A DNA stretch of 64,000 nt from Chiloscyllium plagiosum. Taxonomy: Eukaryota. The notes below the pieces were generated by a model. That model did not search any database and was not told where the DNA came from. It saw only the letters and a list, made by a program, of their open reading frames with translations. Shown here one piece after another: positions 3,248 to 62,692 of this stretch (position 1 is the first letter of the stretch; the number at the start of each line of letters is the position of its first letter). The stretch spans positions 35,683,092 through 35,747,091 of the forward strand of contig NC_057719.1 in NCBI RefSeq assembly GCF_004010195.1, written 5' to 3'. The position numbers were made by a program, and so were the translations under genes.

Positions 3248-3340
3248 CTCCTGAAGAAGGGCTTATGCCGAAACGTCAATTCTCCTGCTCCTTGGATGCT
3301 GCCTGACTTGCTGCGCTTTTCCAGCAACACATTTTTCAGC
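3248..3340 (+). mobile_element. Penelope pseudo-LTR fragment (family A) with hammerhead-like motif at 3251-3277
   Basis: CTGAAGA-AGGGCTTATGCC-GAAA-CGTC followed by the same arm as at 30765-30850. Confidence 0.8.
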
Positions 3341-3428
3341 AGAAGAAATATGGACAGACAATACAACTTTGAAGGGAGTACAGCAGCAGAGGGACCTCAG
3401 ATTTCATGTGCATTCTTCTCTGATGGTG

Positions 3429-3670
3429 AAAACTGAAAGAACTGCAGATGCTGTAAATCAGAAGCAAAAACAGAAGTTGCTGGAAAAGCTCAGCAGATCC
3501 GACAGCATTTGTGAAAAGACATCAAAGTTAATGTTTCGGGTCCAGTGACCCCTCCTCAGACCCTTCCGCATGACTGAGGAAGGATCACTGGACCAGAAAC
3601 ATTTACTTTGATTTCCTTCACAGATGCAGCCAGACCAGCTGAGCTTTCCCAGCAACTTCTGTTTGTTTTT
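3429..3670. mobile_element. Palindromic PLE-derived element (family B) with two opposed hammerhead-like motifs
   Basis: Inverted arms around a ~14 nt spacer. Motifs at 3530-3559(-) and 3574-3603(+). TSD TTCTCTGATGGTG/TTCTCTAATGTTG. Confidence 0.8.
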
Positions 3671-3683
3671 TTCTCTAATGTTG

Positions 3684-4310
3684 GCAAGGCAAGTTGAAAC
3701 AGTTGCGACGGAGGCTTTTACAGGATAGGATCTTTAGGTTTATAAATGGGGGCATATTCAGTATCAAAGCTAGGAAGTGATGCTACACTTTTACAATCAC
3801 TGGTCAGACCATATTTGGAGTAGTGTGTTCAGTTATGCATACCTTATTTAAGGAGGGGTGGAGAGACTAAGGAAGTTTACTAGAATGATACGAGGAATGA
3901 GAGATTTTAGATAGAAGATTAGAGAAATTGGTTTATTTGCCTTGGAACAAAGAATATTAAGAGCTAACCTAATTGAGGTTTTCAAAACTATGAACAATTT
4001 TGACAAGGTAAAGAAGGATATTCTGTTTCCACTAGTTGGTACATCATTAACTAGGAGTCACTATTTAAGATAAGGAGAAACTTCTTAGAGCTGTTAGGAT
4101 TTGGAATGCGCTGCCTGGGAGAATAGTGGAATAGACTCCATACGAGGTTCAAAAGAGAGCTGGGGATATATTTGAAAATAATGAAGTTGGAGCGTTACAG
4201 AGATAGGGCTGGAAAGTGGGATCAGCTGGGTAGCTTTTTCAGCAACTAGCACAGACACGATGGATCAAATGGTCTCCTTCTGTCCCACAAAGTTTATGAT
4301 TCTATGGTTG
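3684..4310 (+). mobile_element. Decayed CR1 3' end
   Basis: Degenerate LVRPYLE and FTRMI motifs followed by a 3' UTR. Confidence 0.75.
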
Positions 4311-4330
4311 ACTTTTGACCGTCCTTTTAG

Positions 4331-5110
4331 GTTCATCCCCAAGAGGAGAAAGATTATCCAGGGAAGAATTAGACAGCCATGGCTGACAAAGGAAGTCAGG
4401 AAATCTATCAAAGAAAAAGAGAGAGCCTATAAAGTGGCCAAGAGCACTAGGAAATCAGAAGATTGGGAAGGCTACAAAAACAAACAGAGAATAACAATGA
4501 GAGAAATAAGGAAAGAGAGGATCAAATATGAAGGTAGGCTAGCCAGTAATATTAGAAATGATAGTAAAAGTTTCTTTCAATACATAATAAACAAACGACA
4601 GGCAAGAGTAGACATTGGGCCACTTCAAACTGATGCTGGAAGCCTAGTGATGGGAGATAAGGAAATAGCAGGAGAACTTAATAAGTACTTTGCATCAGTC
4701 TTCACAGTGGAAGACATGAGTAATATCCCAACAATTAAAGGGAGTCAGGGGGCTGAGTTGAGTATGGTTGCCATTACAAAAGAGAAAGTGCTAGAAAAGC
4801 AAAAAGGTCTTAAAATTGATAAATCTACTGGCCCTGATGGGCTACATCCTAGAGTTCCGAGGAGGTAGCTGAGGAAATAGCGGAGGCGTTGGTTGAGATC
4901 TTACAAAAGTCACTGGAGTCAGGGAAAGACCCGGATGATTGGAAGATCGCTGTTCTAACCCCCTTGTTCAAGAAAGGATCAAGACAAAAGATGGAAAATT
5001 ATAGGCCAATCAGCCTAACCTCGGTTGTTGGTAAAATTCTAGAAACCATCATTAAGGATGAGGTTTCTAAATTCTTGGAAGAGCAGGGTCAGATTAGAAC
5101 AAGTCAACAC
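4331..5110 (+). mobile_element. CR1 ORF2 fragment (linker and RT N-terminus)
   Basis: ORFs 4260..4868 and 4889..5146 (GPDGLHPRV, NYRPISLTSVVGKILE). Confidence 0.92.
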
Positions 5111-5337
5111 ATTTCCAGTGGCATTGTGGTCATTTCACAGTATTAGTAAGATACAGCCTCAGGCTGATGGTCTGGGGATATGGGTATGAACCCCACTATG
5201 GAAAACGTTAGCATTTCAATTTAATAAAATCTATAATTTTAAAAAAAGTGTCTAATGGCAACTACTATTGATTATTATAAAAAATTATCTGCTTCATGTA
5301 AATGAGGCAGACTTCCTTACATGTGACTCCAGACTCA

Positions 5338-6275
5338 CTGGGGGGCATTCTAGCAAAGTTTGCCGATGATACAAAGTTAGGTGGACAGGCAGGTAGTACT
5401 GAGGAAGTGGGGAGGCTGCAGAAGGATCTAGACAGTTTGGAGGAGTGGTCCAGGAAATGGCTGATGGAATTCAATGTGAGCAAATGCGAGGTCTTGCACT
5501 TTGGAAAAAAGAATACAAGCATGAATTACTTTCTAAACAGTGAGAAAATTCGTAAAGCCAAAGTACAGAGGGATCTGGGAGTGCTAGTTGAGGATTCTCT
5601 AAAGGTAAACATGCAGGTTGAGTCGTGATTAAGAAAGCGAGTGCAATGTTGTCAATTATCTCAAGAGGATTGGAATATAAAAGCACTATTGTGCTACTGA
5701 GATTTTATAAAGCTCTGGTTAGGCCCCATTTGGAGTACTGTGTCCAGTTTTGGTCCCCACACCGCAGGAAGGACATACTGGCACTGGAGCGTGTTCAGCG
5801 GAGATTCACACGGATGATCCCTGGAATGGTAGGTCTAACATATGAGGATGAGGATCCTGGGATTGTATTCATTGGAGTTTAGAAGATTAAGGGGAGATCT
5901 AATAGAAACTTACAAGATAATACATGGCTTGGAGAGGGTGGATGCTAGGAAATTGTTTCCGTTAGGCGAGGAGACTAGGACCCGTGGACACAGCCTTAGA
6001 ATTAGACGGGGTAAATTCAGAACAGAAATGCGGAGACATTTCTTCAGCCAAAGAGTGGTGGGCCTGTGGAACTCATTGCCATAGAGTGCAATGGAGACTG
6101 GGACGCTAAATGTTTTCAAGGCAGAAATTGATAAAATTCTTGATGTCACAAGGAATTAAGGGCTATGGGGAGAATGCGGGTAAGTGGAGTTGAAATGCAC
6201 ATCAGCCATGATTGAATGGCGGAATGGACTCGATGGGCCAAATAGCCTTATTTCCGCTCCAAGTCTTATGGTCTT
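5338..6275 (+). mobile_element. CR1 3' part (RT C-terminus and tail) inside a family-B SINE
   Basis: KFADDTK and LVRPHLEYCVQFWSP motifs; tail TCTTATGGTCTT. SINE halves at about 5115-5337 and 6276-6352. Confidence 0.92.
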
Positions 6276-15517: not shown

Positions 15518-15841
<324 letters not shown>

Positions 15842-17666: not shown

Positions 17667-17679
17667 CAATATCCTTGGA

Positions 17680-17840
17680 AGTTAAAAATCACAACACCAG
17701 GTTATAGTCCAACAGGTTTAATTGGAAGCACACTAAGCTTTCGGAGCGACGCTCCTTCATCAGGTGATTGTGGAGGGCTCGATCGTAACACAGAATTTAT
17801 AGCAAAAATTTGCAGTGTGATGTAACTGAAATTATGCAAT
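17680..17840 (-). mobile_element. PLE pseudo-LTR fragment (family C) with hammerhead-like motif at 17731-17768
   Basis: Minus strand CAC-CTGATGA-AGGAGCGTCGCTCC-GAAA-GCTT-AGTG. Exact 13 bp TSD CAATATCCTTGGA. Confidence 0.78.
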
Positions 17841-17851
17841 CAATATCCTTG

Positions 17852-18075
17852 GAGAAAGTGATGACTGCAAATGCTAGAGATCAGTCATAAAGTAAGGCGC
17901 TGAAAAAGTACAGCAGGTCAGGCAGCATCCGAGGAGCAGGAGCATTGACGTTTCGAGCATAAGTCCTTCGTTAGGATTCCCAAAAAAGGCCTTATGCCCG
18001 AAATGTCAACTCTCCTCCTCCTCGGATGCTGCCTGACCTGCTGTGTTTTTCCAGCGCCATACTTTTTGACTTTTA
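17852..18075. mobile_element. Palindromic PLE-derived element (family A, diverged)
   Basis: Inverted arms CAGCAGGTCAGGCAGCATCC.../...GGATGCTGCCTGACCTGCTG; TSD AATATCCTTG; catalytic cores mutated. Confidence 0.8.
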
Positions 18076-20095: not shown

Positions 20096-20403
20096 GATTA
20101 GATTAGATTCCCTACAGTGTGGAAACAGGCCCTTTGGCCCAACCAGTCCACACTGACCCTCTGAAGAGTAATCCACCCAGACCCATTTCCCTCTGACTAA
20201 TGCATCTAACACTATGGGCAACTTAGCATGGCCAATTCACCTGACCTGCACATCTTTGGACTGCGGGAGGAAACTGGAGCACCTGCAGGAAATCCATGCA
20301 GACCCAGGGAGAATGTGAAAACTCCACATAGACAGTCACCAGAGGCTGGAATTGAACCTGGGACCCTGATGCTGTGAGGCAGCAGTGCTAACCACTGAGC
20401 TAC
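20096..20403 (-). mobile_element. HE1-type V-SINE
   Basis: tRNA-like head, V-domain-like core and CR1-like tail GGGCCAAAGGGCCTGTTTCCACACTGTAGGGAATCTAATCTAATC. Confidence 0.88.
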
Positions 20404-20419: not shown

Positions 20420-22345
20420 TGATTCTTGACACAATGTCAGCTCTACGATTTCCAACTTCTTGCCTCCAGCCGCCTTCTCTCCACCTTCTACACCAATTCT
20501 TCTACACCGCTATCATCTGACAGGAGCGTCTGAGAGTTCTTACTTTCTTCTTAGAAAGGAGGTTGGAACAGTGCCCATTTACTATCACCCTCCGCTACCT
20601 GGCTGCACTTGTTCTCAATTTAAACAATCTCTTCTTTTACTCCTTTCACTTTCTCAGAGTTAAAGGTGTGGCTATGGGTACCTCTAGGAATCCCAGTTAT
20701 GCCAGTTCCTTTCTGGGGATCCTCCCACAACCTTTTCTCTGGGAAATGACAACTGCTTTCATCCAAAATTGGGAAAATTAAGCTATTTTGCTTCCAATTT
20801 GCTTCCTTCTCTCACCTTCACCTGGAAAATCTTTTGACTCTTCCCTTCCTCGACATCTCACTTTTCATTTCTGTGGACAGATTATACCCATTACAAATGC
20901 ACCAACTCTCACAGTCACCTTCATTATGCTTCCTCACTAGCTGCGTAGTTGCACAGCCACTCAGGTTACGCACATGCCAATTAGTATACCAGCACATTGA
21001 CTTCAGGTTCTGGAAGCTGCTACCTCAAACATCCACAAGGTGGGGAAAATAAATTGACACATCCTACTTCTTGTAAGAACTCTATTTCATTTTCTCTGTT
21101 CCTCTGGCTGTATTGCACTTATTCTAATGATGATACATTCCACAAAGGTGTTTCCAGTATACCTTCCTTTGACTTTAACTGAAGACTCCCCACTGGCATG
21201 GTGGACAGAGCCTTTAGCCACGTCCAATTCATTTCCCACACTTCTGCTCTCATCTCCTTCCCCAACCCAGAATAATAGGGTTCTTCTTGTCCACCAGCTT
21301 CTGCATTCAAAGGATCACCTGAATCATTTCTGTCACCTCACTCAGACTTCTACCACCAAACACATCCTGCTCTCATGTCAATGATTCCCTCCATAACACC
21401 TTGGCATCTGTTCTTCCCAACACTTTTTTAATCTTCCTATGCAACTGCAAAAGGTACAATATTTTGATCATCATCTTCTCTCTCCTCTCTATCCAAAGCC
21501 CAGGTGATGCAGTGATTTCCTTGTACTTTTTTAAAAATTCATTCATGGGATGAGGGCATCACCAACCAGCCTAGCATTTATTGCTCATCCCTAACTGCCA
21601 GTGGGCAGTTTAGATTCAACCATGTTGCTGAGAGTGCAAAATCATATGCAGGTCAGACCAAGTCAGGATGGCAGTTTCCTTCCCTAAAGAGCATTAATGA
21701 ACCAGATGGGTTTTTCCTCACAATCAGCAATGGATTAGTAGTCTCTTAATTTCACTGAATTCAAATTTTTACCATCTGTTGGAATTCAAACCTGGATCCT
21801 CAGAACACTACCTGGGTCTCTGTATTAACAGTCCAGCTACTAACAATGCAGCGTCCCCTACACCAGCAAATCCAAATACAGAATAGGTGACTGCTTTACA
21901 GAACACCTCTGTTTTGTTTATGAGAATGACCTCGACCTTCCGGTTGCTTGACATTTCAATAAATTATCTTACTGTCAAGGTAACATTTGTATTTGAGGCC
22001 TACTGCAATGTTCCACTGAAGTCCAATGCAAGTTGGAGGAACAGCACGTAATTTTCCAATTAAGCACTTTTTAACCTTCTAGAGTTTAAACCTTCTAGAC
22101 CACTAAGTCTGTCCTCCATTTTAACAACTATCTTTCTATTTTGCAGCCATTAGCACACTCCATTGTATATTGATCTTGGGCACTCTTACCAACGCTCCAC
22201 TTACTACTTATTCGCCCTTTTCTAGAACATAGAATCCATTACTTTTCCAGCTATCTTCAATTCTGAAAAGTCACGATGGACTTGAAATGTTGGTTGATTC
22301 TCTCCCACAGATGCTGTCAAGCCTTCTGAATAGCTATAGCACATA
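20420..22345 (+). mobile_element. Decayed Penelope-like element (RT, GIY-YIG and pseudo-LTR remnants)
   Basis: KGVAMGTSRNPSYA (PLE RT motif GVAMGT.MGPSYA) and LPFLDI motifs; KLEEQH-like end near 22030; degenerate pseudo-LTR at 22260-22340. Interrupted by a SINE. Confidence 0.75.
21535..21850 (-). mobile_element. SINE family B
   Basis: Reverse complement of the 31620-31955 type (TTTCCTTCCCTAAAG..CATTAATGAACCAGATGGG). Confidence 0.75.
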
Positions 22346-22622: not shown

Positions 22623-22892
<270 letters not shown>

Positions 22893-27300: not shown

Positions 27301-27687
27301 ATTGTTATGCTTCTGGAAGACGATTTGAAAATAAATCAAATTTTACATGTAGTCAATTACATTTTTTTAAGTTTCACTTGTGAATCTGGACTGCACAGGA
27401 CCTCAATCAGATTGTCTGGCTATGTTCAAGACAACACTGACCAAACTACTGAGTAGGAGAGGAACAGAAGTATAAGGAGGGAGTTATTCAGATCCATCAA
27501 TCCATCAATCTCATACATTTTAAAACTTTTATTACTGAAAAAGCACACATTTATTAAGTTTAAAGTTTGGAAATGTGTCTCACCTATTATTAATCTCATT
27601 CTTAACATTTATCTAACTGTCGTCCACTTAAGTTGTTTGAATCAGATAAAATGTTCTCCTATCCTGCTGACCAACTTTAAGCTCCAC

Positions 27688-27779
27688 TCTGATGAAGAGT
27701 CATTAGACTTGAAACATTAGCTTGCACTCTCTCGGATGCTGTGTAAACCACTGTGATCTCCAGCATTTGCTGCTTTATG
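27688..27779 (+). mobile_element. Solo 92 bp PLE pseudo-LTR beginning at a hammerhead-like motif
   Basis: T-CTGATGA-AGAGTCATTAGACTT-GAAA-CATT-AG; TSD TTTAAGCTCCAC/TTTAAGCACCAC. Confidence 0.68.
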
Positions 27780-28359
27780 TTTAAGCACCACAGAACTTGG
27801 TGACATGAGAACACAAGAGATAGGAGCAGGAGTAAGCCTCAAAGCCTGTCACGCAATACAATAAGATTGTGGCTGTTCTGCCCCACGCCTCAATTCCTTT
27901 TTCATGCTGGCTCCATCTAATGCTCACTCTCCAATATTTCAAAAGTCTCTCCTCTTTAGATACTTTATGATTTTGCCTCCCCAGTTCTGATAGAACATTT
28001 CAGACACTTATTACCATCTGGGAGAAGAGATGCCTTCATATCTCAGTTTTAATTAATTGTCCCTCTATTGTGGAACTATGTATCCCAGTTTGAGACTGAT
28101 TCTAAAATAAATTTAAAATAAAATTTTTACGGATCACAAATATCTGTTCTAATCTAGCTACCGAACTGCTTGCGAGCAAAGTTATCACCATGAGAACTTA
28201 TTCACTGAAGGGTGACTGCTTTAGCTGTTCTTACTAATTTGGTAGCAGAACACACAGTAAAGATGATCTGGAATGCATAAACAGCCAAGAATTGAACCGT
28301 GCTTTAAAGTAAAGTCTGCCAATGTTTGGATGTAAACACAATGTTAGAAACCTAAAATG

Positions 28360-28783: not shown

Positions 28784-31212
28784 GAACATAGAACATAGAA
28801 CATTACAGTGCAGAACAGGCCCTTCAGCCCACGATGTTGTGCCGACCATTGATCCTCATGTATGCACCCTCAAATTTCTGTGACCATATGCATGTCCAGT
28901 TGTCTCTTAAATGTCCCCAATGACCTTGCTTCCACAACTTCTGCTGGCAATGCATTCCATGCTCTTACAACTCTCTGTGTAAAGAAACCACCTCTGACAT
29001 CCCCTCTATACCTTCCTCCAACCAGCTTAAAACTATGACTTCTCGTGTTAGTCATTTCTGCTCTGGGAAATAGTCTCTTGCTATCGACTCTATCTATGGC
29101 TCTCATTATCTTGTATACCTCAATTAGGTCCCCTCTCCTCCTCCTTTTCTCTAATGAAAAAGGTTTGAGCTCAGTCAACATCTCTTCATAAGATAAGCCC
29201 TCCAATCCAGGCTGCATCCTGGTAAACCTCCTCTGAACCCTCTCCAAAGCATCCTCGTCTTTCCTATAATAGGGTGACCAGAACTGGATGCAGTATTCCA
29301 AGTGTGGTCTAACCAAAGTTTTATAGAGCTGCAACAAGATCTCAAGACTCTTAAACTCAATCCCCCTGTTAATGAAAGCCAAAACACCATATGCTTTCTT
29401 AACAACCCTGTCCACTTGGGTGGCCATTTTAAGGGATCTATGTATCTGCACACCAAGATCCCTCTGTTCCTCCACACTGCCAAGAATCCTATCCTTAATC
29501 CTGTACTCAGCTTTCAAATTCGACCTTCCAAAATGCATCACCTCGCATTTATCCAGATTGAACTCCATCTGCCACCTCTCAGCCCATCTCTGCATCCTGT
29601 CAATGTCCCGCTGCAGCCTACAACAGTCCTCTATACTGTCAACAACACCTCCAACCTTTGTGTCGTCTGCAAACTTGCTGACCCATCCTTTAATCCCCTC
29701 ATCCAAGTCATTACTAAAAATTACAAACAGTAGAGACCCAAGGACAGAGCCCTGTGGAACACCACTCACCACAGACTTCCAGGCAGAATATTTTCCTTCT
29801 ACTACCACTTGCTGTCTTCTGTTGGCCAGCCAATTCTGTATCCAGACAGCTAGGTTCCCCTGTTTCCCATTCCTCCTGACCTTCTGAATGAACCTACCAT
29901 GGGGAACCTTATCAAATGCCTTGCTGAAGTCCATATACACCACATCCACAGCTCGACCCTCAAACTTTCTAGTCACATCTTCAAAGAACTCGATAAGGTT
30001 TGTGAGGCATGACCTGCCCCTCACAAAGCCATGTTGACTGCATTTGATCAAGCCATGCTCTTCCAGATGGTCATAAATCCTATCCCTCAGAATCCTTTCT
30101 AACACCTTGCAGATGACAGACCTGAGACTTACTGGTCTGTAATTGCCGGGGATTTCCCTATTTCCTTTCTTGAAGAGAGGAATTACATTTGCCTCTCTCC
30201 AGTCCTCAGGTACGACTCCAGTGGAGAGCGAGGATGCAAAGACCTTCGCAAGTGGCGAAGCAATTGCATTTCTCCTTTCTCAAAGCAGCCGAGGACAAAT
30301 CTGGTCCGAGCCTGGCTTAATGTTTGACAAAATTTTCAGCACATCAGCTTCCTCTATCTCTATCCATTCCAGCATGCACACCTGCTCTTCAAAGATTTCA
30401 TTCACTGCAAAGTTCGTTTCTTTCGTAAAGACAGAAGCAAAAGACTCATTTAAGGGCTTCCCCTACCTCCTCAGACTCCACACACAAATTCTCTATGCTA
30501 TCCCTGATCGGCCCTACTCTTCCTTTGACCATTCTCTTATTCCTCACATAAGTGTAAAGTGCCTTTGTATTCTCCCTAATCCGTTCTGCCAAGCCTTTCT
30601 TGTGCCCCCTCTTGGCACTCCTCAGACCATTTTTGAGCTCCTTCCTCACCTGCCTGTAATTCTCTCGAGCTGAAAATGTGTTGCTGGAAAAGTGCAGTAG
30701 GTCAGGCAGCATCCAAGGAGCAGGAGAATCGACGTTTCAGGCATGAGCCCTTCTTCAGGAATTCCTGAAGAAGGGCTCATGCCCGAAACGTCGATTCTCC
30801 TGCTCCTTGGATGCTGCCTGACCTGCTGCGCTTTTCCAGCAACACATTTCCAGTTCTGATCTCCAGCATCTGCAGTCCTCACTTTCTCCTAGAAGATGTA
30901 ATCCTCTAGAGCTGAGCTTGACCCTAGCTTCCTCCACCTTATGTAAGCTACCTTTTTCCTTTTGACGAGAAGCTCCACCACTCTCGTCATCCAAGGTTCC
31001 TTTATCTTACCACTTCTTGCCTGTCTCAGAGGGACATATTTATTCATCACTTGCAACAACTGTTCCTTAAACAGTCTCCACATGTCTATAGTGCCTTTAC
31101 CATGGAACAATTGCTCCCAATCCATGCTTCCTAACTCATGTCTAATCGCATCATAGTTTCCTCTTCCCCAATTAAATATCCTCCCATTTTGCCTAATCCT
31201 CTCCTTAGCTAT
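28784..31212 (-). mobile_element. Young HER1-like CR1 LINE with an open 411-aa RT segment (28870-30105)
   Basis: YMDFSKAFDKVPH, VPQGSVLG, KFADDTK and LVRPHLEYCIQFW motifs; tail (TGTTCTA)n; 5' truncated and interrupted by the PLE palindrome. Confidence 0.95.
30674..30896. mobile_element. Near-perfect palindromic PLE-derived element (family A) with two hammerhead-like motifs
   Basis: ~88 bp arms centred on GGAATTCC (30758-30765), 3 mismatches, no spacer. 19 bp TSD (17/19 identical) at 30655-30673 and 30897-30915. Confidence 0.9.
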
Positions 31213-31619
31213 GTATTTTCATTTCTTTCTGAATAAATGCACAAGTTTCAGGACCAATAATATCGAACCATGCTAACTAAAATAAAATAGGTTTTGCAGC
31301 ATTTGTATTTTGTGGGATCCAGGAAAGGAAGCATTGCTACTATATGTGACTGCACATCTTTAAAAGAATTAAGAAATTTATGGATGATTTTGCTTGATCA
31401 ACAAATTCAAAGAACAACTCCAACAGACTTCAAATGGAAACAAAATACTGGGGAAATTCCACAGGTCTGGCAGCATCTGACAAACAGTCAACATTTCAAG
31501 ACCTGCTCGATTTCTTCAGCATCCAGTTTTTGTTTTACATTAAATGTTTTCTTAAGTCATTACATCTGTTGTGTCTAAGTGTCAAAATAGAGAGCCAGCT
31601 GCAATCAGCATTTTGCTCA

Positions 31620-33331: not shown

Positions 33332-33739
33332 TTATAACAAGTAAATTTAAATAACATACTGCATTGTTTTGTTAAAGAAAAGACAAAAACAAATTTTCCT
33401 GATATTGCAAGTTTAACGAAAGCTGTATGAAAGGAAGCAAATACTGTTATTTACAAATGGGCAGATACCATTCTGAAAAGAAATCCAAATAACCAGGTTT
33501 CTAAAATGAGACATTTTGATACCACCTTATTCACATAAATCCATTTATTTTCTTCTTTGCATTTGTAGCTGAAGAACGTATCAGGCTGGCAATATGAAGT
33601 TACCATATTGCTAAATTATAAACTTGCTCATGGCTTAATTTTTAAAAAATGTTATTCAAGATACTTATGATATTTTTAGTGCAGCATGGTCAGTAAAGTC
33701 CAAAAATAATCCCACTGCTCTGAATCTTACTTTGCTTAG

Positions 33740-34050
33740 TTAAAAATCACACATCACCAGGTTATAGTCTAACACTTTTATTTGGAAGTACTAGTTTTTG
33801 GAACGCTGCTTCTTCATTAGGTAGCTGTGGAGTAGGATCATAAGACAGAATTTATAGCAAAAGACCACAGTGTCGTGCAACTGAAATATACTGAACAAAC
33901 CTAGAATGGTGTCTTATGATCCTGTTCCACAGCTACATGAAGGAGCAGCACTCCGTAAGCTAGTACTTCCAAATAAACCTGTTGGACTATAACCTGAGAG
34001 AATTTCAATTTTGTCCATCCCAGTCCAACATTGCCATCTCCACATCATCA
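33740..34050. mobile_element. Inverted-repeat PLE-derived element (family C)
   Basis: Arms CAGGTTATAGTC..ATCATAAGACA / TGTCTTATGAT..GACTATAACCTG; homologous to 17680-17840. Confidence 0.78.
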
Positions 34051-34901: not shown

Positions 34902-35601
34902 GCTGGAAATGTGTTGCTGGAAAAGCGCAGCAGGTCAGGCAGCATCCAGGGAACAGGAGAATCGACGTTTCGGGCATAAGCCCTTCTTCAGGAATGGGGA
35001 AGGTTTGTCCAGCAGGCTAAGATAAAAGGTAGGGAGGAGGGATTTGGGGGAGGGGCGTCGGAAATGCGATAGGTGGAAAGAGGTCAAGGTGAGGGTGAAA
35101 GGTCAGACTGGGGTGGGGGCGGAGAGGTCGGGAAGAAGATNNNNNNNNNNNNNNNNNNNNNNNNNNNNNNNNNNNNNNNNNNNNNNNNNNNNNNNNNNNN
35201 NNNNNNNNNNNNNNNNNNNNNNGGGGGCCAGTGGGGTTCTGTCCTGGTGGCGGTTGGAGGGGCGGGGTTCAAGGGCGGAGGAGCGGGAAGTGGAAGAGAT
35301 GCGGTGGAGGGCATCGTCGACCACGTCGGGGGGGAAATTGCGGTCCTTGAAGAAGGAGGCCATCTGGGTTGTGCGTTTTTGGAACTGGTCCTCCTGGGAG
35401 CAGTGCCGGCCTGTCTCCCCAATATAGAGGAGGCCACATCGGGTGCAGAGGATGCAGTAGATGATATGTGTGGAGGTGCAGGTGAATCTGTGGCGGATAT
35501 GGAAGTTTCCTGTTCCCTGGATGCTGCCTGACCTGCTGCGCTTTTCCAGCAACACATTTCCAGCTCTGATCTCCAGCATCTGCAGACCTCACTTTCTCCT
35601 C
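34902..35601 (-). mobile_element. Young truncated Penelope-like element (family A) with GIY-YIG fragment and inverted pseudo-LTR
   Basis: IIYCILCTRCGLLYIGETGR in ORF 35103..35579. Exact 15 bp TSD TAAAATCCTACATTT. Hammerhead-like motif at 34964-34991(-). Confidence 0.9.
35141..35222. other. Assembly gap (82 N)
   Basis: Run of N. Confidence 1.
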
Positions 35602-41101: not shown

Positions 41102-41239
41102 GTTTTGATATAAAGTCTGGCGCTGGAAAAAGTACAGCAAGTCAGGTAACATCTGATGCTGCCTGATTATCTCTGCTTTTTCCAGTGCCACACTATCAAT
41201 TCTTGACTCTCTAGCATCTGCAGTTCTCACTTTCTCTTA
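41102..41239. mobile_element. Short palindromic PLE family A remnant lacking the ribozyme core
   Basis: GGCGCTGGAAAAAG..CATC/GATG..CTTTTTCCAGTGCC; TSD about CCACTAGGCCA/CCACAAGGCCA. Confidence 0.72.
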
Positions 41240-41339
41240 GATTCCACAAGGCCATTCCAATTTGAATCTTTCCCTCCATTTTCAACCTTACTATTAACAG
41301 TATAAAAACTATCATAAATCTGCCACCCCATCAGTAGCC

Positions 41340-42897
41340 AGACAGACACTTTGTTACAGGGACAAAGCTTGGTGTAACGAGTAATGAATGGCTCCACACG
41401 GGTAAGAGGCATGGTCAACATGAGATCAGGACCAGTGGCATATAAACTTGGTTAGAGACAAAAAAAAACTTCAGATGCTGGAATCCAAAGTAGCCAAACA
41501 GTATGGGAGATGGTGGCTCAATGGGCCATGGTAAGGTTTTGTTAAAGGGGGAGGTAGGACATGGTGGCGGAGAGCTGGCATTCAACCTCTGCAAAATAGA
41601 GGTCCATCCTCAGGCTACCACTGCTTCGCCTTTGTCAGCAGTCTACTGCATCCAGTGCTCCCGATGTGGTCTTCTCTACATTGGTGAGACCAAATGTAGA
41701 CTAGGTTACTATTTCACAGAGCATGATCGACAGGCTGTAACAGCCAGCCTGACCTCCCAGTTACCATCCATTTCAATTCCCCTTCTACTCCCTCTCTGAC
41801 ATGTCCATCCTCGGTCTCCTCCAGTGTTGCAATGAATCAGACTGCAAACTGGAGGAACAATACCTCATCTTCGCCTGAGCAGCCTACAGCCAGGAGGATT
41901 TACATCGAGTTCTCCAATTTCAAATAACCTTTTGACTCATTCCCCGGCTCCCTTTCCAGCACCACCTCCTGCCTCACTAGCTTTACTATCATCCCAATCT
42001 CATCCTATGTGCTCTTGCTCTTCTCCCTGCCTCCTTGGCCTGAACTGCCCATCTTCCTTCCCACCTATCTGCTCCACCCTTGCATCACAATAACTCCCTT
42101 CCTGCCTCCACCTATCACTAGCCCACCTAGCTTTGCCCCAGCCCCACACTGCCCCTATTTATTTCTGAGCTCCCTTCCCCCTCCCCAATCCTGATGAAGG
42201 GTCTCGACCTGAAATATTGACTTCCCAATATTCTGATGCTGCCTGACTTGCTGTGTTCTTCCAGCCTAGTTTGTCTGCAGTGAAATATAAAGTTCAGATA
42301 GGTGAGACAGCCCTGAACAAGCACGTGAACCATACTAAAAGCAAGAATTCCCATACAGTGTGGGAGCAAAGGGTGCGCTACATCTTGGTAAAATATGAAA
42401 CGGTGCCAGAACCCGTGGATTCACCCTCTCCATCAAGTGTTGTCAAGTCCTCTGCATCAGAGATGGAGATAATAGCTTTGCAACAGAAAGAGAGAAGCAA
42501 ATTCTACTCAGGTGATCCTGGTGTAGAGGTCAGCTGTCGTGCATTACACACTGCATGCATCACGGGGTTGGAGAAACTTGACCTGGTTCAAAAACACCCC
42601 ATGGGGGTTCTGCACAAGAAAGGACTAGCCTATGTCCTCCGACTCCGCGGGGTAGGGATGTAGTCTCTGTAACAAGGTCAACCGGCTGGACCTTATAGAA
42701 TACGAGTTCCCTGATTGGACCAAATTATCAGCCCCAAACAGGGAGCCCTGGCTAACATATGAAAAAGGAATGCGTCAGAGATTATGACACTCTGGTATCT
42801 TACTTTGAATGAGGCAGTCCTAAAGTCAAGAACTGTTCTTGTGCAAATAAAGAGTGACTTGGTGACAGAATACCTGGCAATGAATTATCTTCCTCAA
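41340..42897 (+). mobile_element. Gypsy-like LTR retrotransposon 3' part (integrase tail, PPT, LTR from 42659)
   Basis: RSGPVAYK|VKYKVQIGETALNKHVNH across the PLE insertion; purine tract GGGGTAGGGA then TGTAGT..TGTAACAAGG; AATAAA inside the LTR. Confidence 0.68.
41447..42277 (+). mobile_element. Truncated Penelope-like element (GIY-YIG and pseudo-LTR) nested in a Gypsy remnant
   Basis: AVYCIQCSRCGLLYIGETKCRLG. Motif CTGATGA-AGGGTCTCGACCT-GAAA-TATT at 42191-42218. TSD CAGTGGCATATAAA/CAGTGAAATATAAA. Confidence 0.85.
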
Positions 42898-49474: not shown

Positions 49475-49778
49475 AATCCCTACTGGGTGGAAGGAATCCA
49501 CAATAATTCTCCGAACAGCATCCCAAGCAGACCTACACCCTACCCTATTGCTGCATTCCCCATGGTTAATCTACCATCCACATAACCCACATATACCTGG
49601 ACACCATGGGCAATTTAGCATGACTAAGCCACAATTTTGGAAGTGGCGAGAAACCAGAGCACCTGGAGGAAATTCATGCAGACATGGGGAGAATGTGCGA
49701 ACTCCACACAGTCACCTGAGGGTGGACTCAAACAGGGTCTCTGAAGCTGTGAGGCAGCAGTGCTAACCATGCCACCTC
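49475..49778 (-). mobile_element. Decayed HE1-like SINE
   Basis: GTGAGGCAGCAGTGCTAACCA and GGGCAATTTAGCATG match the other HE1 copies. Confidence 0.75.
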
Positions 49779-50665: not shown

Positions 50666-50993
50666 TTTTGTGAGAAGATTTGTAGCTCGAGTGCTCGTTG
50701 CTGTGGTTCTGTTTGCCGAGCTGGATGTTTTTTGTTGCAAACGTTTCGTCCCCTGTCTCGGTGACATCCTCAGTGCTTGGAAGCCTCCTGTGAAGGAGGC
50801 TTCTGTGGTGTTTCCTCCGGCATTTATAGTGGCCTGTCCCTGCCGCTTCCAGTTGTCAGTTTAAGCTGTCCGCTGTAGTGGCTGGGATATTGGGTCCAGC
50901 TCGATGTGTTTCACAGAAGCGCTTCACAGGAGGCTCCCAAGCACTGAGGATGTCACCTCGACAGGGGACGAAACGTTTGCAACAAAAATTTCC
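50666..50993. mobile_element. Inverted-repeat PLE-derived element (family D) with two intact hammerhead-like motifs
   Basis: GCA-CTGAGGA-TGTCACCTCGACAGGGGAC-GAAA-CGTT-TGC at 50941-50980(+) and a near-identical copy at 50737-50776(-). Exact TSD AGATCAGGTAG. Confidence 0.88.
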
Positions 50994-52736
50994 AGATCAG
51001 GTAGATTAAGAAAAGCTGTTTCCATTATTTGATGGTACAAGTATTGGCGACACAGTTCTGGGACACAGATATGGGAAGACAGAAGGAAGAACAGTTTTTT
51101 TTAATCCAAGATTGCATTGACCTACAACTCGCTACCTACATGGGTGGATGAAGCGAAGACAATTAATGATTTTCAATAGAAATTGGATGCCAACGTGAGG
51201 TAAATAAAACTTACATGGTTACAGGGATCGGGAAAGAGACAAACTGATTGTTCTGCAGAGTGTGAACATGGATCTGATGGCTTGGTGGCATCTTCTACAT
51301 TAAAACCGGACTTCAACTGTTTGCAACATATTGCAGAAATCCAGTAACTAAGAATTACAAGTTACTCTGCAGTCAATATAGAAAATCCTAGTACTTATAG
51401 TTATGTAGCTGTTTCCAAGTACTTTCTTTTTAGATGTACGAGAAAATGCTCAAGTTCTACAGTAACAATAACATTCTTTCCATTGATTGTCAAAAATTTT
51501 CTAACTAGTCACAGTGAAACTGTTAACTGCACAGAAATTCCTAGTATCACATTAATTTTGATGTGCAAAGTATCTGCAACTTCTAACCACAATTTAAACA
51601 GGACTGGTAAATACCGTCCACATCCTGGACTGAGAAAGTAACTAAAACTTGAAAAGTTAACATTGCAGACTTGCAAATAGCCAGAATCATAATTCATTTT
51701 GTTTAATATTAATTTTGAAAGATACAATAAATAACCTTAAAATACTTTAGTTTTAAATATAATCATTCTATCTGATCTTTAAGAAGGTTTTTCAATATTA
51801 GTGTTTGCAGTTACCTTCAGGGTAGCCAGTTAAATTCATGACCACACGCAAGTGCAAAATATCACGCATTACGAAACTGGCTTCCACTGCAAAAACTATT
51901 TTTAATAAATGATGGTAGTTTTTTTTTTTAAAAATAGCTTTACTTAGCATCTGCCCATATGTGGAGCACTGTCAATTACAATAGTAAGTTTTAAATTTTT
52001 GAACGCATACCCAATAAACATGAATCACAAATTAGGGAGGCTTCCTTTTTGAATACACAGCTAAATTCTAACAGTAGCTTTCAAATACTTGGCTAATTAG
52101 GTCCCATCTTGTACACAACATTCCAAAAGTTTGAAAACAAAACAAGCAAAACACTCCGAGCTTGAAATACATTCAGCAAGATAACACCGAGACTCCATCA
52201 AAACACTTATGTAATGATACATTAAATATGAAATATATGTATTTTGCTTTAAAAGGACAAAACCGTACTGAATAAATGAAACGGTGCAGATTTTTCTCCC
52301 GCACTTGAAAGTAAGCAGGCAAAAAAAAAGTTATGTTACAAAACAACCTCCGAAAAGATCCAAACCTGGGCTAAAGCCCAGCCCCCAACAATCACTCAAC
52401 CTCTCCTAAAGGCTAATGACCTCACTTCCTTTGACATCAGCACGCTTAGTTGGGGGATGGGACAGTGACAGCAGAAAGCAGCAAACTCAGATTCAAGATA
52501 GGAAGGAAATGCTTCAATGAACCAGAGCTGCCTTACTAATCGTACAATTGAAGCCTATTACAGAATTTGCTCTTTGATTTTAAACAAGAGCAAACAACGC
52601 CCTGATGGAATACAGGCTTCAACAGAATTGCTCTCCAAGTGCGCACTTCCTTTATTTCTAATCTCCCCTCACAAAAGCACCGCACGAACAGATAAGCAAG
52701 CGTAACATTCCACTGCCGCATACATTATAAACCCAC

Positions 52737-54684: not shown

Positions 54685-54797
54685 GAAACAAAACAGAAGT
54701 TGCTGGAAATGCTCAACAGGTTTGGCAGCATCTGTGAAGAGGAGTCAGAGTTAACGTTTTGGGTCCAGTGAACCATCCTCGGTTTTTTGGTTTTTTT
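54685..54797 (-). mobile_element. PLE family B pseudo-LTR remnant
   Basis: Homologous to the left arm of 3429-3670; TSD ATCAAGAACCAAA/ATCAAGTACCAAA. Confidence 0.72.
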
Positions 54798-57368: not shown

Positions 57369-58469
57369 TTGCTGCAGATAGGGAAGCATGGCATTTCAGA
57401 AAAAGGAGTTGCTAGATTGTGGGTTGCAGCTTTCAATTGGGAGTTAACTCAGCATTGCCTATACCTTTCAACTCAAACACTACCCTATTACCTTCCCCAT
57501 ATCCTCACTCCCATTTCGATTTCTACCTCACTTCCTTTGAGTTACTTATTGAACATGTGTATGCTCTCTTCCAATTGACTGAGACTGAGATTTACGAGGG
57601 GACAGAAGAACCTGGTTCTTATCCAGACCTGGGCTTTAGCTCCATTTTAACCTGAACAGCAACATACAGAAATAACAAAGGAAAGGAGAAAATGAACTAA
57701 AACGAGAAAAAGAACAAACCACAGCATTAAGAGTCGATGGCGAGAAAAATGACCAAAGGTACAGATTATGAGCTCTGCAGTTCTGTTCCACAGTGTACAT
57801 GGGAACATGTCTTAGTATTGCAATCCACAGGCATGTGCCAACTAAACTACGTAAAAACACAGTTTTTGGCTGGTCCACATCAAAAACCACGGGGTTGCCT
57901 AACTGCCAGTTACTTACTGACATTGTCCTCCTTAGAGAATGCATAGCAAGAGTACTCAGAACCAGCTCAACCAAAGTGCATGTGGGTATTTGTTGAGTGT
58001 CCTGTTGAGAATGAGATGAAACCCCTTTACATTAAAGTAGACTGCTGAGTTAAATAAATAAAACTGCTACTCATCATCAGCAATTAGCAATAGTCTGCAG
58101 CTTGAACTCTGAATGCTGCAAAGCATCAGAGAAGAGGAAAACTACTTGGACATTTTGCTCCAGGAGGCAGTAACATCTCTTAGGTTAGATACTGCACGTT
58201 TGGTTTGTGGCCAGGGACAATTATTAGTGGGGCTAAGGGAATATAGTTCTAATTCCATATTATAGCTTAGATGGTAACCAGTATTTGTGACTTATTTTAA
58301 GAATATATATTATAACTGAAGGAAATTTTAATTTATTGAAGAAGCTCGGTGGAAGAAGCTCGGTGAAAGTAGCCTCTCTCAGGCTACCCAAAATTTCACA
58401 AAATATTTGCTGCATAGCTTAGTCAATGCCTTTAGTGTTATGAACTTCTTAGAGACCAGATAAGTGTTT

Positions 58470-58802
58470 TTGTTTAAAATCATGAGGGGCATGGATAGAG
58501 TGAACGGGCAAGATCGCTTCCCTGGGTAGGTGGGCATACATTTAAGGCGAGAGGGGAAAGATTTAAAAGGGACCCAAGGGCCAACATTTTCATGTAGAGG
58601 GAATGATCTGCCAGAGGATGTGGAGGAGACTGGTACAATTACAACATCTAAAAGGCATGTGGAAAGGTATATGAATAGGACGGGTTTACAGCAATATGGG
58701 CCAAATGATGGAAAATGGGACTAGATTTATTTAGGACATCTGATCAGCATGGAGTTGGACTGAAGCATCTGCTTCATCCTGTGCATGCTATGGGTCTATG
58801 AC
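58470..58802 (+). mobile_element. CR1 3' end
   Basis: KIMRGMDRV motif and a tail resembling 56290-56530. Confidence 0.75.
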
Positions 58803-60736
58803 TAAAACACTGATATTTACTAGAAGAATGAAGCCACAAGGTTCACAGTTTGAAAGAAAGAACTTCATTACATCAAAATCAAAGAACATGAATACTAATC
58901 ATTACACTAACTAGTCAGTTATGCTAAAGGCCTCAAAAGTACAAAGGACACACTTATATTTGAAACTAAACACAACTCAACTTTCCTTATGCCTCCATTT
59001 GATTCCCTCAAAACCGCACGATAACCATGCAGCTTGAGTTCTGTTTCAAAGGTTCATATAAGGTTTAAGGTTTTTTGAGCCCAGTATATACTTCTGACCA
59101 GGTGGTCCCTGCAAATCTCCTTCAATTGCCCCTCTCAACAAGTGTGTCACGAGCATCTTAAACATGGTCACTTCAGGTCAGAATTCTCCTAGTTCGAATA
59201 TTCATTAACTCCGAAGTCTTCATTTAAAATTCTATCTCCACAGCTTTGTTATCCCTGGAAGTCAAACCCACTGCTAGTACTCCAATTTCCAAGAATTTTA
59301 AGCTCTTCTATCATTAAATGGCAAAATGTACTTTAATACAGAGGCACAGAATCTGTTTTACCACTGCACGCAAGTACAGCATATCTCAAATGATTCAAGA
59401 TGTTCACAGTACAGAAGGCAACCATTCAGCCATCATGCCCATGCCAAACAATTAACTTCCCTCACTCCATTTAGAAAATCTTGGTCCGTAGCTCTGTAGA
59501 CTATGGCGAATCAAACAAATATCTATGGCTTTTCAAATATTTATCATTTTTGATCCAAAAATGCAAATCACATGCATAACAAGAAGGAAATATTTTTGAA
59601 AATACAAATTGTAAGTTTAATTCAAGGAAAGGTTTCACACAGGAAGATCACATTTTTGCCCTCTTATAAATGTAGTCCTGCTAAAAATGGCGATGTTAAT
59701 CTTTTAAATTATCTTCAATAGGGTTGACTATCTAATCTGGTTATCATCTGGTACAGCTGGTGAATATGTTTAATTGAGCATTCGCCTCTCTTAGCTATTG
59801 GAAATGACAATTGATAACCAAAAAAAGTTGTGTTCTTACTTAATCTACTTATAATAGCTTACTGAAATGTATTTTTGAATAGTTATTTTACATTTATTAT
59901 CCTCTGCTGCCATTAAAGATGGTTTCTCTCTGCTGCTCCACTGAGGCAATGTTATGAGGTCAGAAGCAATTGCTGTTTTTTGGACTGCAAGAAATGTCTC
60001 ATGCTTCTTAAAAAAAGCTAAAAGTTTTAGTTATCAAAAATATCTATGCTTGAAAACAAATAGAGGTCAGCATTGCGTTAAACTTAGAAAATAATTTGGG
60101 GGGAAACTGAACGTGGCTACTTAGTGCATTTTATTAGTTTGCGTGTTTCACAAGTGTTCCTTTTTCCCCTCAGGATAAACAGTCAGAGTAAACTGCAGTT
60201 TCCTTTACATCTCTTACAATTGAAAGATTTCGATTTGATAACTGGCTTTGTCAATTCTTCAACTCCAATTCAACTTGTGGTATTGATACACCAAGTTTTC
60301 TGGCAGTATTATATAAAATTCAAATTACATTTGCAATAGCTAACATGTTAAATTCAAAATGTCAGGTCATAACACATTAAACACTCCTGAAATAAGATTT
60401 TTAATGCCATGCTGAAATTAATATTTCAATCCAAAGTGTGAAAATTATAAATTGATAAACCCAGAAATTGAGCTTCCAACATTTTTAAGCGCAAAATTAA
60501 TGAGAAAAGTCTCAAACGCATTTTCTCACTAATATTAACTCCCCATTCTTACTCTCTACCAACACACTTTACTCACACCTTTCCTTTTGAGAAATCTTGC
60601 TATCTATTTTAAATTTCTAGCTAGCTTCCTCTCATACTCCAATGTCTTCCTTCTGATTAATCTTGTAGCCCTTCTCTGCAATTCTTCATATTCTGTCCAA
60701 CCATTTGACCTGCCATTCATCTTTGTGCAAGATATG

Positions 60737-62692
60737 CTTTTTCCTCAGGTTGGAAGCTTTTCTTAATTAATCACAGATGGTGGGTATTCCCTTTAGAATT
60801 TTTCTTCATAGCAGAGACATATTTATTCTGAAATGTCCCCTTAAATGTTGACCACAGTTTGTCTATTGACCTATTATCTTGCCTAACACTCTAGGTCACT
60901 TCACTAGTTCAGCTCTCATGCCCACACAATTGCATCTATTTAAATTTAAAATACTTATCTTAAATCCACTCTTTCCCCCTTCAAACTGGATGTAAAATTT
61001 AATCATATTGTAGTCTTTTATCTGGGCTGCCTTTAATCTGAAGTCATTGATCAATCCTGCAACATTACACAATCTCAAGTCAAACCTGCTCTTTGGCTGG
61101 GCCCAGGCTCCATTACGCGAGAAAACTCTAAATCATTGTATGAACACATCATATCTCATTTTTCTAGTTTGATATGTAGATGATATTTCTATACCTTAAT
61201 CATAAGCACCCTATATTCATTCTTGTATACTTTGTGTGTTCCATATACTGAATACTGCTGTGGTTCTGTTCGCTGAGCTGGAAGTTTTTGTTGCAAACGT
61301 TTCGTCCCCTGTCTAGGTGACATCCTCAGTGCTTGGGAGCCTCCGGTGAAGCGCTTCTGTGCTGTTTCCTCCGGCATTTATAGTGGCCTGTCCCTGCCGC
61401 TTCCGGTTGTCAGTTTCAGCTGTCCGCTGTAGTGGCCGGTATATTGGGTCTAGGTCTATGTGTTTGTTGATGGAGTTTGTGGATGAGTGCCATGCTTCTA
61501 GGAATTCCCTGGCTGTTCTTTGTTTCGCTTGCCCTATAATGGTAGTGTTGTCCCAGTCAAATTCATGTTGCTTGTCGTCTACGTGTGTGGCTACTAGGGA
61601 TAGCTGGTCGTGTCGTTTCGTGGCTAGTTAATGTTCGTGGATGCGGATCGTTAGCTGTCTTCCTGTTTGTCCTGGACAAACACATAGACCTAGACCCAAT
61701 ATACCGGCCACTACAGCAGACAGCTGAAACTGACAACCGGAAGCGGCAGGGGCAGGCCACTATAAATGCCGGAGGAAACAGCACAGAAGCGCTTCACAGG
61801 AGGCTCCCAAGCACGGAGGATGTCACCTAGACAGGGGACGAAACGTTTGCAACAAAAACTTCCAGCTCGGCGAACAGAACCACAGCAACGAGCACCCGAG
61901 CTACAAATCTTCTCACAAACTTTGAATACTGAATACTGTTAGGAGGCCTGAAGACTATTCCCCAACACACTTCTTTAGCTTATTAATCTTTATTTCCACC
62001 CAAACCATTCAGACACCCTGATGTCCTGAATCAAGAAAATCTATAACTATTGCACCAGCGTCATAATTAATTGTGCTACCCCTTCAACTTTACCTAGCTT
62101 GCTATTCTTCTCAAATGCCATATGACAGTCACACGTAGGACCAAACCATAACATTATGCAGTCACGGCTCCAGAAGTTCTCTCAGATCACATTTATTTAC
62201 TTTAATTTGCACTATCGATTCATTTACATTGTTATGAATGCTACGGGAATTTGATTGTGCCTTTTTGTTTCTTGCCAACATCTAGCCTCGACTGTCAGCG
62301 TATTCTTAGGTCTACATTCTATGCACTTTTTTGCCACCTCTGGCCTTCATTACCGAAATTACTATTTGTTTTCTTGCCTTGACTCTATTCTTTGATTTGC
62401 TATACCTACCCAAGTTTAATCCCTCATCCCCAGTGTTAAGCTTAAATCCCTCCCTACTTGCTTGATTGCGCAGTTTTCAGGAACACTAGTTCTACAACTG
62501 TTCAAACTGACCCAGTCCCCACTTCCTCCAGTATGGATGTCAGTACTTTTTCCTCAGGTTGGACGCTTTTCTTAATTTAATTAATCACGGATGATGGGTA
62601 TTCCCTTTAGAATTTTTCTTTATAGCAGAGACATACTTATTCTGAAATGTCCCCTTAAGTGTTGACCACAGTTTGTCTACTGACCTATTATC
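60737..62692 (+). repeat. ~145 bp dispersed direct duplication (60737-60878 and 62546-62692)
   Basis: Both copies run CTTTTTCCTCAGGTTGGA...TGACCTATTATC with only a few differences. Confidence 0.9.
61258..61925 (-). mobile_element. Young truncated Penelope-like element (family D): GIY-YIG C-terminal half with ~210 bp inverted pseudo-LTR
   Basis: Minus strand reads GQTGRQLTIRIHEH*LATKRHD...AREFLEAW. Exact 13 bp TSD ATACTGAATACTG. Hammerhead-like motifs at 61293-61332(-) and 61811-61850(+, core mutated to CGGAGGA). Confidence 0.9.

What the first reader, a model, noticed from the sequence alone, without database searches (positions are those of the whole stretch)
3251..61850. Dispersed system of minimal hammerhead-ribozyme motifs on about four Penelope-derived families
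Seen: the pattern CTGANGA - stem II - GAAA - short tetramer recurs at 3251(+), 3530-3559(-), 3574(+), 17731-17768(-), 27689(+), 30731-30758(-), 30765-30792(+), 34964-34991(-), 42191(+), 50737-50776(-), 50941-50980(+) and 61293-61332(-). The best copies have a palindromic stem III (ACGT, AACGTT, AAGCTT). Stem II differs completely between families (GGGC-TTAT-GCCC; GGGTC-ACTG-GACCC; GGAGC-GTC-GCTCC; GTCACCT-AGAC-AGGGGAC) yet always pairs, while the core nucleotides stay fixed, which is covariation support. Known: PLE pseudo-LTRs carry minimal type I hammerheads with a vestigial stem III, thought to work as dimers. Inference: these are the elasmobranch versions, present at about one per 5 kb.
Basis: partly seen in the sequence, partly recalled or inferred. 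Interest (0 to 1): 0.8.

Follow-up and report, generated by a model that had tools for sequence, protein, structure and literature searches.

The report
Hammerhead-tipped Penelope retroelement stubs
The small hammerhead-ribozyme motifs are real and sit in the end pieces of several Penelope-like jumping-gene families (more than 160,000 intact-core copies in this genome), which is a known kind of element, and the shape of the copies suggests that most were likely copied from RNA the ribozyme had not cut.

Summary
Confirmed: all 12 listed motifs are there, far above chance (7 strict motifs against 0.09 in shuffles). They are minimal type I hammerheads in the pLTRs of Penelope-like elements (PLEs), as described by Cervera and de la Peña 2014. 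GIY-YIG remnants lie upstream of four window copies, and the elements carry the PLE tail, inverted 5' copies and 11-19-nt target duplications. The window holds six families from two PLE lineages, not four. Elsewhere in the genome a further family carries the compensatory U3-A8 core. The genome holds over 160,000 intact-core motifs. Two patterns bear on mechanism. In head-to-head pairs exactly one arm carries the tail (56 of 59). Neptune-type copies start at the first bases of helix I (59 of 113 young copies within -15..-44) with no peak at the cleavage site, whereas Poseidon-type copies show no such edge (0 of 13). Cleavage was not tested, and RNA reads did not show transcript ends. The scan noted these stubs and their 5' edge before, on other pieces of this genome. 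Verdict: new members of a known kind, with a useful mechanistic handle.

The parts
3249..3340 (+). Family A solo stub; hammerhead C3-C17 at 3251-3277, 1-nt deletion in stem II, no tail
3427..3665 (.). Family B head-to-head pair; minus arm with tail (hammerhead 3559-3530), plus arm without tail (3574-3603, stem II mismatched); candidate target duplication 3413/3668
17680..17835 (-). Family C (Neptune-type) stub, hammerhead 17763-17735, no tail; flanked by CAATATCCTTGGA repeats
17858..18071 (.).
21844..22345 (+).
27685..27780 (+). Family E stub, hammerhead from 27689; 12-nt candidate target duplication 27676/27780
30667..30890 (.). Family A head-to-head pair centred at 30761/30762; hammerheads 30758-30731 (-) and 30765-30792 (+); both arms start at -31; tail on plus arm only; 19-nt target duplication (2 mismatches); inserted in a LINE RT remnant
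33738..34040 (.).
34902..35600 (.). Family A insertion: long minus arm with GIY-YIG remnant (35394-35510), assembly gap 35141-35222 and hammerhead 34991-34964; short plus arm 35508-35600 starting 6 nt past the cleavage site, with tail; 15-nt target duplication
41656..42265 (+). Family F copy: GIY-YIG remnant 41656-41872, 3' region, hammerhead from 42191
50667..50998 (.). Family D (Poseidon-type) inverted pair; hammerheads 50773-50740 (-) and 50944-50977 (+); tail on minus arm; 11-nt target duplication
54699..54785 (-).
61256..61927 (.). Family D inverted pair; minus arm 61673-61256 with GIY-YIG remnant and hammerhead 61329-61296; plus arm 61676-61927 with U4-to-G core mutation and tail; 13-nt target duplication

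Best explanation
These are minimal type I hammerhead motifs in the terminal repeats of several endonuclease-bearing Penelope-like retrotransposon families, scattered as short, mostly protein-less, 5'-truncated retrocopies; the ribozyme was likely selected on the active master RNAs, where it would cleave only as a dimer or with protein help, and the genomic copies were likely reverse-transcribed from uncut RNA. Shown: motif, helix I/II/III pattern, linkage to GIY-YIG and RT, two discrete 3' ends about 40 nt apart, target duplications, one-tailed head-to-head pairs, and a 5' edge at the start of helix I in the Neptune-type families. Inferred: the element's protein nicks both target strands and primes one cDNA at each of the two internal start sites (short end and tail end); the two cDNAs grow towards each other and are joined head to head. 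Inferred, less sure: in the Neptune-type families the RNA begins about 4 nt upstream of the core, so priming at the 5'-proximal copy of the start sites runs off the RNA after 90-130 nt and leaves a stub that begins with the hammerhead.
For: Features outside the search descriptor, in 72 strict hits (65 sample, 7 window): U16.1 70 of 72, non-G at 17 71 of 72, helix I pair 1 63 of 72 and pair 2 59 of 72 against 52 and 40 on shuffling partners (copies are related, so this is descriptive). Across 11 subfamily majority lines, helix I pairs 1 and 2 pair in 11 of 11, with C-G, U-A and A-U at pair 1 (families E and F rest on 2 and 1 copies). One family has U3-A8 in place of C3-G8: 2,760 pattern matches against 902 control, the same core covariation as reported in Schistosoma (PMC4209133). 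Protein links. Family D has its ATG at the start of stem II, 28 nt before the cut site (26 nt in the anole PAc element, PMC11167929). Exactly one tailed arm in 30 of 33 A, 22 of 22 C and 4 of 4 distinct D pairs (p about 1e-13). 5' ends within -15..-44 of the cut site: A 49 of 88, C 10 of 25, D 0 of 13 (Fisher p 2e-4); only 7 of 88 A ends lie at +5..-4. Genome-wide, D shows no drop across the helix I edge (14,013 against 14,151). Raw reads reproduce the A edge as a four- to fivefold fall in depth at the A four bases before C3.
Against: No cleavage assay. Rfam has no match. Whole stubs fold no better than shuffles (z +0.2 to -1.0), and isolated-motif folding gave the hammerhead's helix I for 1 of 3 motifs; none of 3 dimer folds gave the stem III dimer. 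Pfam GIY-YIG and RT scores are below curated cut-offs. No full-length intact element was recovered: the 876-aa frame was an assembly gap. For families B, E and G no young copy with an adjoining coding region was found; they are tied in by a shared downstream block and tail and by one degraded copy. RNA reads show no pile-up of molecule starts at either the proposed start site or the cut site, so the transcript-start step has no direct support.
Confidence: 0.82

Rival explanations
1. The 5' edge is not a transcript start but a stop or cut during integration: RT arrests, or the endonuclease nicks, just past the folded or protein-bound hammerhead.
For: The edge coincides with the first pair of helix I in families A, B, C and G although the sequences differ. 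In family A it falls on ATT, the motif the PAc endonuclease prefers (PMC11167929). No RNA 5' ends were seen there.
Against: A structural block should stop RT on the 3' side of the helices, yet most copies read through the whole motif. Family D has a longer stem II and no edge. Families B, C and G lack ATT at the edge.
Confidence: 0.3
2. The stubs are a SINE-like or retrozyme-like non-autonomous family that propagates as a unit, palindromes included, rather than truncation products of full-length PLE RNA.
For: Most Neptune-type copies are 90-130 nt with target duplications. No young coding copy was found next to B or G hammerheads. A 2026 preprint derives retrozymes from pLTRs.
Against: Palindrome centres differ between insertions while the arms share subfamily marks (loop II identical in 7 of 8 pairs against 2.1 shuffled; junctions), so palindromes are made anew at each insertion. 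The same subfamilies have long copies reaching GIY-YIG. No tandem arrays of hammerhead monomers in the window. Some mobilisation of stubs in trans is not excluded.
Confidence: 0.2
3. Head-to-head pairs arise by fold-back self-priming on an antisense template (proposed in PMC3846280), not by two primings on sense RNA.
For: Many junctions have short overlaps or palindromic centres, as noted in that paper.
Against: A fold-back copy does not by itself predict that one arm ends at the short site and the other at the tail site (56 of 59), while PAc primes at two such sites on sense RNA and extends both strands in vitro. Endonuclease resolution of a hairpin could still give the asymmetry.
Confidence: 0.2
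4. The dispersed hammerheads are a host-selected regulatory system acting on the pre-mRNA in which they sit.
For: A B56 (PP2A regulatory subunit) exon lies at 22623-22892 on the minus strand, so minus-strand motifs are probably transcribed in sense; family A sequence is present in RNA reads in both orientations.
Against: In 68 family A copies found without using the core, core positions are no better kept than the downstream block (0.94 against 0.96, non-CpG; the block was the search anchor, which favours it), and only 42 of 68 keep an intact core. Fold-back pairs would pair arm to arm instead of folding as hammerheads (inference).
Confidence: 0.04

Closest known systems
Minimal hammerheads (min-HHR) in pLTRs of metazoan Penelope-like elements (Cervera and de la Peña 2014, PMC4209133)
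   Same: Type I, short helix I, one extra base between positions 9 and 10.1, G10.1-C11.1, palindromic 15.1-16.1 tetramer, many families per genome, mostly solo copies, some opposite-strand pairs, a U3-A8 variant.
   Different: Copy number: at least 160,000 intact-core matches here against about 9,000 in Xenopus and 4,000 in coelacanth by their descriptor (methods differ). The text read names no cartilaginous fish; its supplements were not seen.
PAc, Poseidon-clade PLE of the green anole (Frangieh et al. 2024, PMC11167929)
   Same: Family D: ORF start at the beginning of stem II, cut site 28 nt downstream (26 in PAc), two 3' ends bounding a tail. Uncut RNA as the apparent template.
   Different: In the Neptune-type family A the likely ORF start lies past the tail, and the sharp 5' edge at helix I is not described in the parts read.
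Canonical EN+ PLE insertion unit: pLTR, inverted 5'-truncated copy, 30-40-bp tail (Craig et al. 2021, PMC8557442; Arkhipova et al. 2013, PMC3846280)
   Same: All three features plus target duplications; tail often at one end only.
   Different: Here the one-tail rule is counted (56 of 59 pairs), and most units are reduced to 90-260 nt.
Non-LTR retrozymes (PMC7229834; bioRxiv 10.64898/2026.07.22.740005)
   Same: Type I hammerheads, very high copy number (up to 120,000 in axolotl), PLE connection.
   Different: Retrozymes are head-to-tail tandem arrays, mostly with canonical hammerheads; these are solo or head-to-head stubs continuous with PLE coding sequence.

Membership tests
PLE minimal type I hammerhead | Core CUGANGA...GAAA with U16.1 and H17 | tested here: met
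   U16.1 70 of 72, H17 71 of 72 strict hits
PLE minimal type I hammerhead | Helix II with an extra base at its 5' end and G10.1-C11.1 | tested here: met
   Bulge is A in 64 of 72, G-C in 55 of 72 (most others G-U); the bulge and pairing were part of the descriptor
PLE minimal type I hammerhead | Short helix I closing the motif (type I topology) | tested here: met
   3-4 bp; pairs 1-2 pair in 11 of 11 subfamily majority lines with three pair types at pair 1
PLE minimal type I hammerhead | Vestigial palindromic stem III | tested here: met
   Self-complementary loop dinucleotide in 51 of 72 hits; palindromic tetramer in 8 of 11 majority lines, the other three ACAT, consistent with CpG decay of ACGT (inference)
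PLE minimal type I hammerhead | Self-cleavage as dimer or with protein help | not testable with these tools
   No assay; RNA reads show no ends at the cut site
EN+ Penelope-like elements | C-terminal GIY-YIG endonuclease upstream of the pLTR | tested here: met
   Families A, C, D, F by translation and tblastn; Pfam E 0.012-0.085, below cut-off; not shown for young B, E, G copies
EN+ Penelope-like elements | RT domain in the same element | tested here: inconclusive
   D: RVT_1 E 2e-5 in L209 next to the EN; C: YIDD-bearing remnant in L105, no Pfam hit; A: not recovered; no intact full-length ORF
EN+ Penelope-like elements | 30-40-bp optional tail, inverted 5'-truncated copy, target duplication | tested here: met
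Neptune clade (families A, C) | CX2-5CxxC motif in the RT-EN linker (PMC8557442) | tested here: met
   C: motif in L105, with a stop inside. A: seen in a related copy, L216, overlapping L126 sequence. No tree was built
Penelope/Poseidon clade (family D) | No linker Zn-finger; ORF start in stem II as in PAc | tested here: met
   L202 and L208 translations; frame starting in stem II. No tree was built
Non-LTR retrozyme | Head-to-tail tandem monomers each with a hammerhead | tested here: not met
   No such arrays in the window; 12 same-strand neighbours under 1 kb among 157 copies, one examined in detail and found to be a PLE partial tandem

The most novel reading that the evidence does not exclude
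This genome is a fossil record, hundreds of thousands of events deep, of how PLEs integrate: each fold-back insertion is made by two primings at the two internal start sites on one uncut RNA, and in Neptune-type but not Poseidon-type elements the RNA begins on the first base of hammerhead helix I. The ribozyme would then be a 5'-end switch of the mRNA (decapping or processing tandem read-through RNA), not the maker of the transposition template.
Probability: 0.4. Interest if true: 0.6.

Novelty: new member of a known kind. Interest (0 to 1): 0.36.

Why it matters
The role of PLE hammerheads and the origin of inverted pLTRs are open questions (PMC8557442, PMC3846280, PMC11167929). The counts here argue that cut RNA is not the usual template and that inverted pairs come from two primings, and they give a clade contrast that 5'-end mapping can test. 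The motif itself and its link to PLEs are not new. The copy number exceeds the figures in the papers read (9,000 minimal motifs in Xenopus; 120,000 retrozyme copies in axolotl).

Tried and rejected
Rfam scan: no hammerhead family, only miRNA-hairpin look-alikes on two palindromes. Folding z-scores uninformative; dimer co-folding did not reproduce the stem III dimer. Search for an intact element: the 876-aa frame and three other long frames were gaps or repeats. Run search: no RNA holder listed among indexed runs. Of two raw poly(A) single-cell runs, one gave 1,830-2,451 reads dominated by read-through of genomic copies (94% run on into unrelated flanks) and the other gave none; neither tests transcript ends. 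One row of 5 molecule ends 12 nt upstream of the edge was judged too weak. The first 5'-end tally was confounded for old subfamilies lacking long references and was redone with same-subfamily references; in that call the family C offset was wrong and was corrected by hand and, and 3 of 28 C hits on a CA repeat were dropped. One D pair sharing an arm with another was dropped (5 to 4). Rejected: MITE or fixed palindromic master (variable centres); a peak of 5' ends at the cleavage site; a spliced short 5' exon (solo stubs abut their target duplications). Lünse et al. 2017 could not be read; it is cited only through a review and may already list cartilaginous-fish motifs. Paper searches for shark or elasmobranch with hammerhead ribozyme and Penelope, and for truncation or twin priming with PLE hammerheads, found no description of these families or of the 5' edge; supplements were not read.
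Full report
OBSERVATION. All twelve listed motifs are present at the stated places. A strict descriptor finds 7 in the window against 0.09 in shuffles, and 65 in 80 genome stretches chosen by round coordinates (782 kb without N) against 0-2 per shuffle. It misses family D because of a fixed A.G mismatch in stem II. Exact-pattern counts in the 3.56-Gb genome are 88,166 for the GGGC-NNNN-GCCC family (reversed control 0) and 75,815 for cores with longer stems (control 3,521). These patterns differ in length, so together they give about 160,000 intact-core motifs as a lower bound. Stem II does not always pair, and several further copies were missed (see parts).

IS IT A HAMMERHEAD? The best evidence comes from features not used in the search. 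In 72 strict hits, U16.1 is present in 70, position 17 is not G in 71, the loop 3 dinucleotide is self-complementary in 51, and the bases flanking the motif pair as helix I: pair 1 in 63, pair 2 in 59, pair 3 in 35, pair 4 in 49, then background. The copies are related, so the family level is fairer: in 11 subfamily majority lines pairs 1 and 2 pair in all 11, with C-G, U-A and A-U at pair 1, and pair 3 pairs in 8 (E and F rest on 2 and 1 copies). A family absent from the window replaces C3-G8 by U3-A8 and keeps everything else (2,760 matches, control 902). That is a compensatory change in the catalytic core, reported before in Schistosoma (PMC4209133, parts 1-2 of 4 read). Against: no Rfam match, no folding signal, and co-folding did not give the stem III dimer. 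Activity is untested.

WHAT CARRIES IT. Family D (GTCACCT stem) continues upstream into a GIY-YIG frame in the window and in loci L019 and L202, and into an RT remnant in L209. It lacks a linker Zn-finger, and a frame opens at an ATG at the start of stem II, 28 nt before the cut site, as in the anole Poseidon element PAc (26 nt; PMC11167929, parts 1-2 of 4 read). Family C (GGAGC) has RT and GIY-YIG remnants with a CxxxxCxxC linker in L105. Family A has GIY-YIG about 490 nt upstream of the hammerhead in 3 of 4 close hits and in the window at 35394-35510. F has its own remnant at 41656-41872. B, E and G share A's downstream block and tail; no young coding copy was found beside them, only a degraded one at 21844-22345. 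By the linker criterion in PMC8557442 (passages), A and C are Neptune-type and D is Poseidon-type; no tree was built. Pfam scores are below cut-off, and no intact element was recovered because the assembly has gaps between inverted arms. In a partial tandem of family A the sequence runs on past the tail into an ATG frame, so the stub is the 5' untranslated part of the next unit. Families A-D each have two discrete 3' ends about 40 nt apart (the A query itself included the tail, and A's short end is seen), frequent inverted 5' copies, and target duplications of 11-19 nt at most window insertions, not found at three of twelve.

MECHANISM 1: THE TAIL RULE. In the sample plus window, head-to-head pairs have the tail on exactly one arm in 30 of 33 (A), 22 of 22 (C) and 4 of 4 distinct pairs (D); unpaired copies have it about half the time (46 of 86, 7 of 19, 3 of 6). 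Arms of one pair share loop II in 7 of 8 scorable pairs (2.1 on shuffling), while centres vary. PAc primes at two internal sites that bound the tail, cuts and extends both strands, and is predicted to be a dimer. The simplest reading (inferred) is one priming at each site from opposite nicks, with the two cDNAs joined head to head. Self-priming on an antisense template, proposed in PMC3846280 (passages), is the rival.

MECHANISM 2: WHERE COPIES START. Counting from the cleavage site, and using only copies at least 88% identical to a long reference of their own subfamily, 49 of 88 A copies (of 152 found) and 10 of 25 C copies start within -15..-44, with the mode at -28..-31, the 5' strand of helix I. 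None starts between -40 and -65 (A) or -37 and -99 (C). Only 7 of 88 start at +5..-4, no more than in neighbouring positions. In family G, 7 of 11 true members end within the four helix I bases (read by eye). Family D shows no edge: 0 of 13 (Fisher p 2e-4), and genome-wide 14,013 matches inside the motif against 14,151 for a window 15 nt further upstream. For A, 15,713 copies reach -39 against roughly 42,000 of the same loop types with the core (48 of the first 100 rows, scaled; rough). Raw reads show the same edge as a four- to fivefold fall in depth, but they are read-through of genomic copies and show no molecule ends. So the template was normally uncut, as for PAc in vitro. The edge lies in initiator-like sequence in A and B (TCATTC, TCAGTT; consensus recalled, from no call), and D. 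virilis Penelope has an internal promoter in its pLTR (PMC2377424, passages). I therefore favour a transcript start (about 0.55) over an RT stop or endonuclease cut (0.3).

HOST FUNCTION. The window contains a B56 exon on the minus strand, so these copies are probably intronic. Core positions in family A copies are no better preserved than the downstream block (0.94 against 0.96). The dispersed motifs look like decaying passengers.

COMPARISON AND NOVELTY. Membership in the PLE minimal-hammerhead class is met on every sequence feature; activity could not be tested. It is not a retrozyme array. Dimer cleavage is taken from PMC4209133 and a review (PMC6765202, passages); the primary Lünse paper was not available. 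PMC6155905, PMC7229834 (passages) and the 2026 preprint (part 1 of 5 and passages) do not describe these families; the preprint reports retrozymes in one chondrichthyan. Supplements were not read. That the host is an elasmobranch was not tested; it rests on recalled resemblance of the SINEs and on earlier scan notes. Earlier notes of this scan report the same stubs, fold-back pairs and 5' edge on other pieces of this genome and in other genomes; I reached the edge before reading them. A word search found no note combining the clade contrast with the tail rule.

VERDICT. Real, correctly identified, new members of a known kind. Interest 0.36, carried by the copy number, the U3-A8 family, the tail rule and the clade-specific 5' edge.

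Noticed in passing
window 22623-22892 (-): Exon of a PP2A regulatory B56-family gene (Pfam PF01603, E 5e-20); the window is probably mostly intron of this gene.
   Followed up: partly
L217-L228 (G000:C1); absent from the window: Family G hammerhead with compensatory U3-A8 core, about 1,900 matches above control; its true upstream is a pyrimidine tract ending in TAG, resembling a 3' splice site.
   Followed up: partly
window 17667-18090: The family C stub and the old family A pair are nested at one target: three copies of AATATCCTTG flank them, suggesting insertion into an earlier target duplication.
   Followed up: no
window 41090-41240: A-lineage fold-back pair truncated past the hammerhead on both arms, with tail on one arm.
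   Followed up: no
window 28873-31218 (-), 4185-5625 (+), 11843-13837 (+): LINE RT remnants (RVT_1 E 6e-31 at 28873-30279; CR1-like by recall); the 30667-30890 pair interrupts one.
   Followed up: no
window 20096-20403, 39716-40023, 49643-49769: Three related SINE-like repeats; V-SINE-like by recall, not tested.
   Followed up: no
L229-L248: Family A partial tandems in which the ORF start (about 30 codons) is fused to the 3' region at varying points; many break near the same place.
   Followed up: partly
window 30793-30890 and equivalents in families B, E, F, G: A conserved block downstream of the cut site that can pair with the tail, a candidate protein-binding structure.
   Followed up: no
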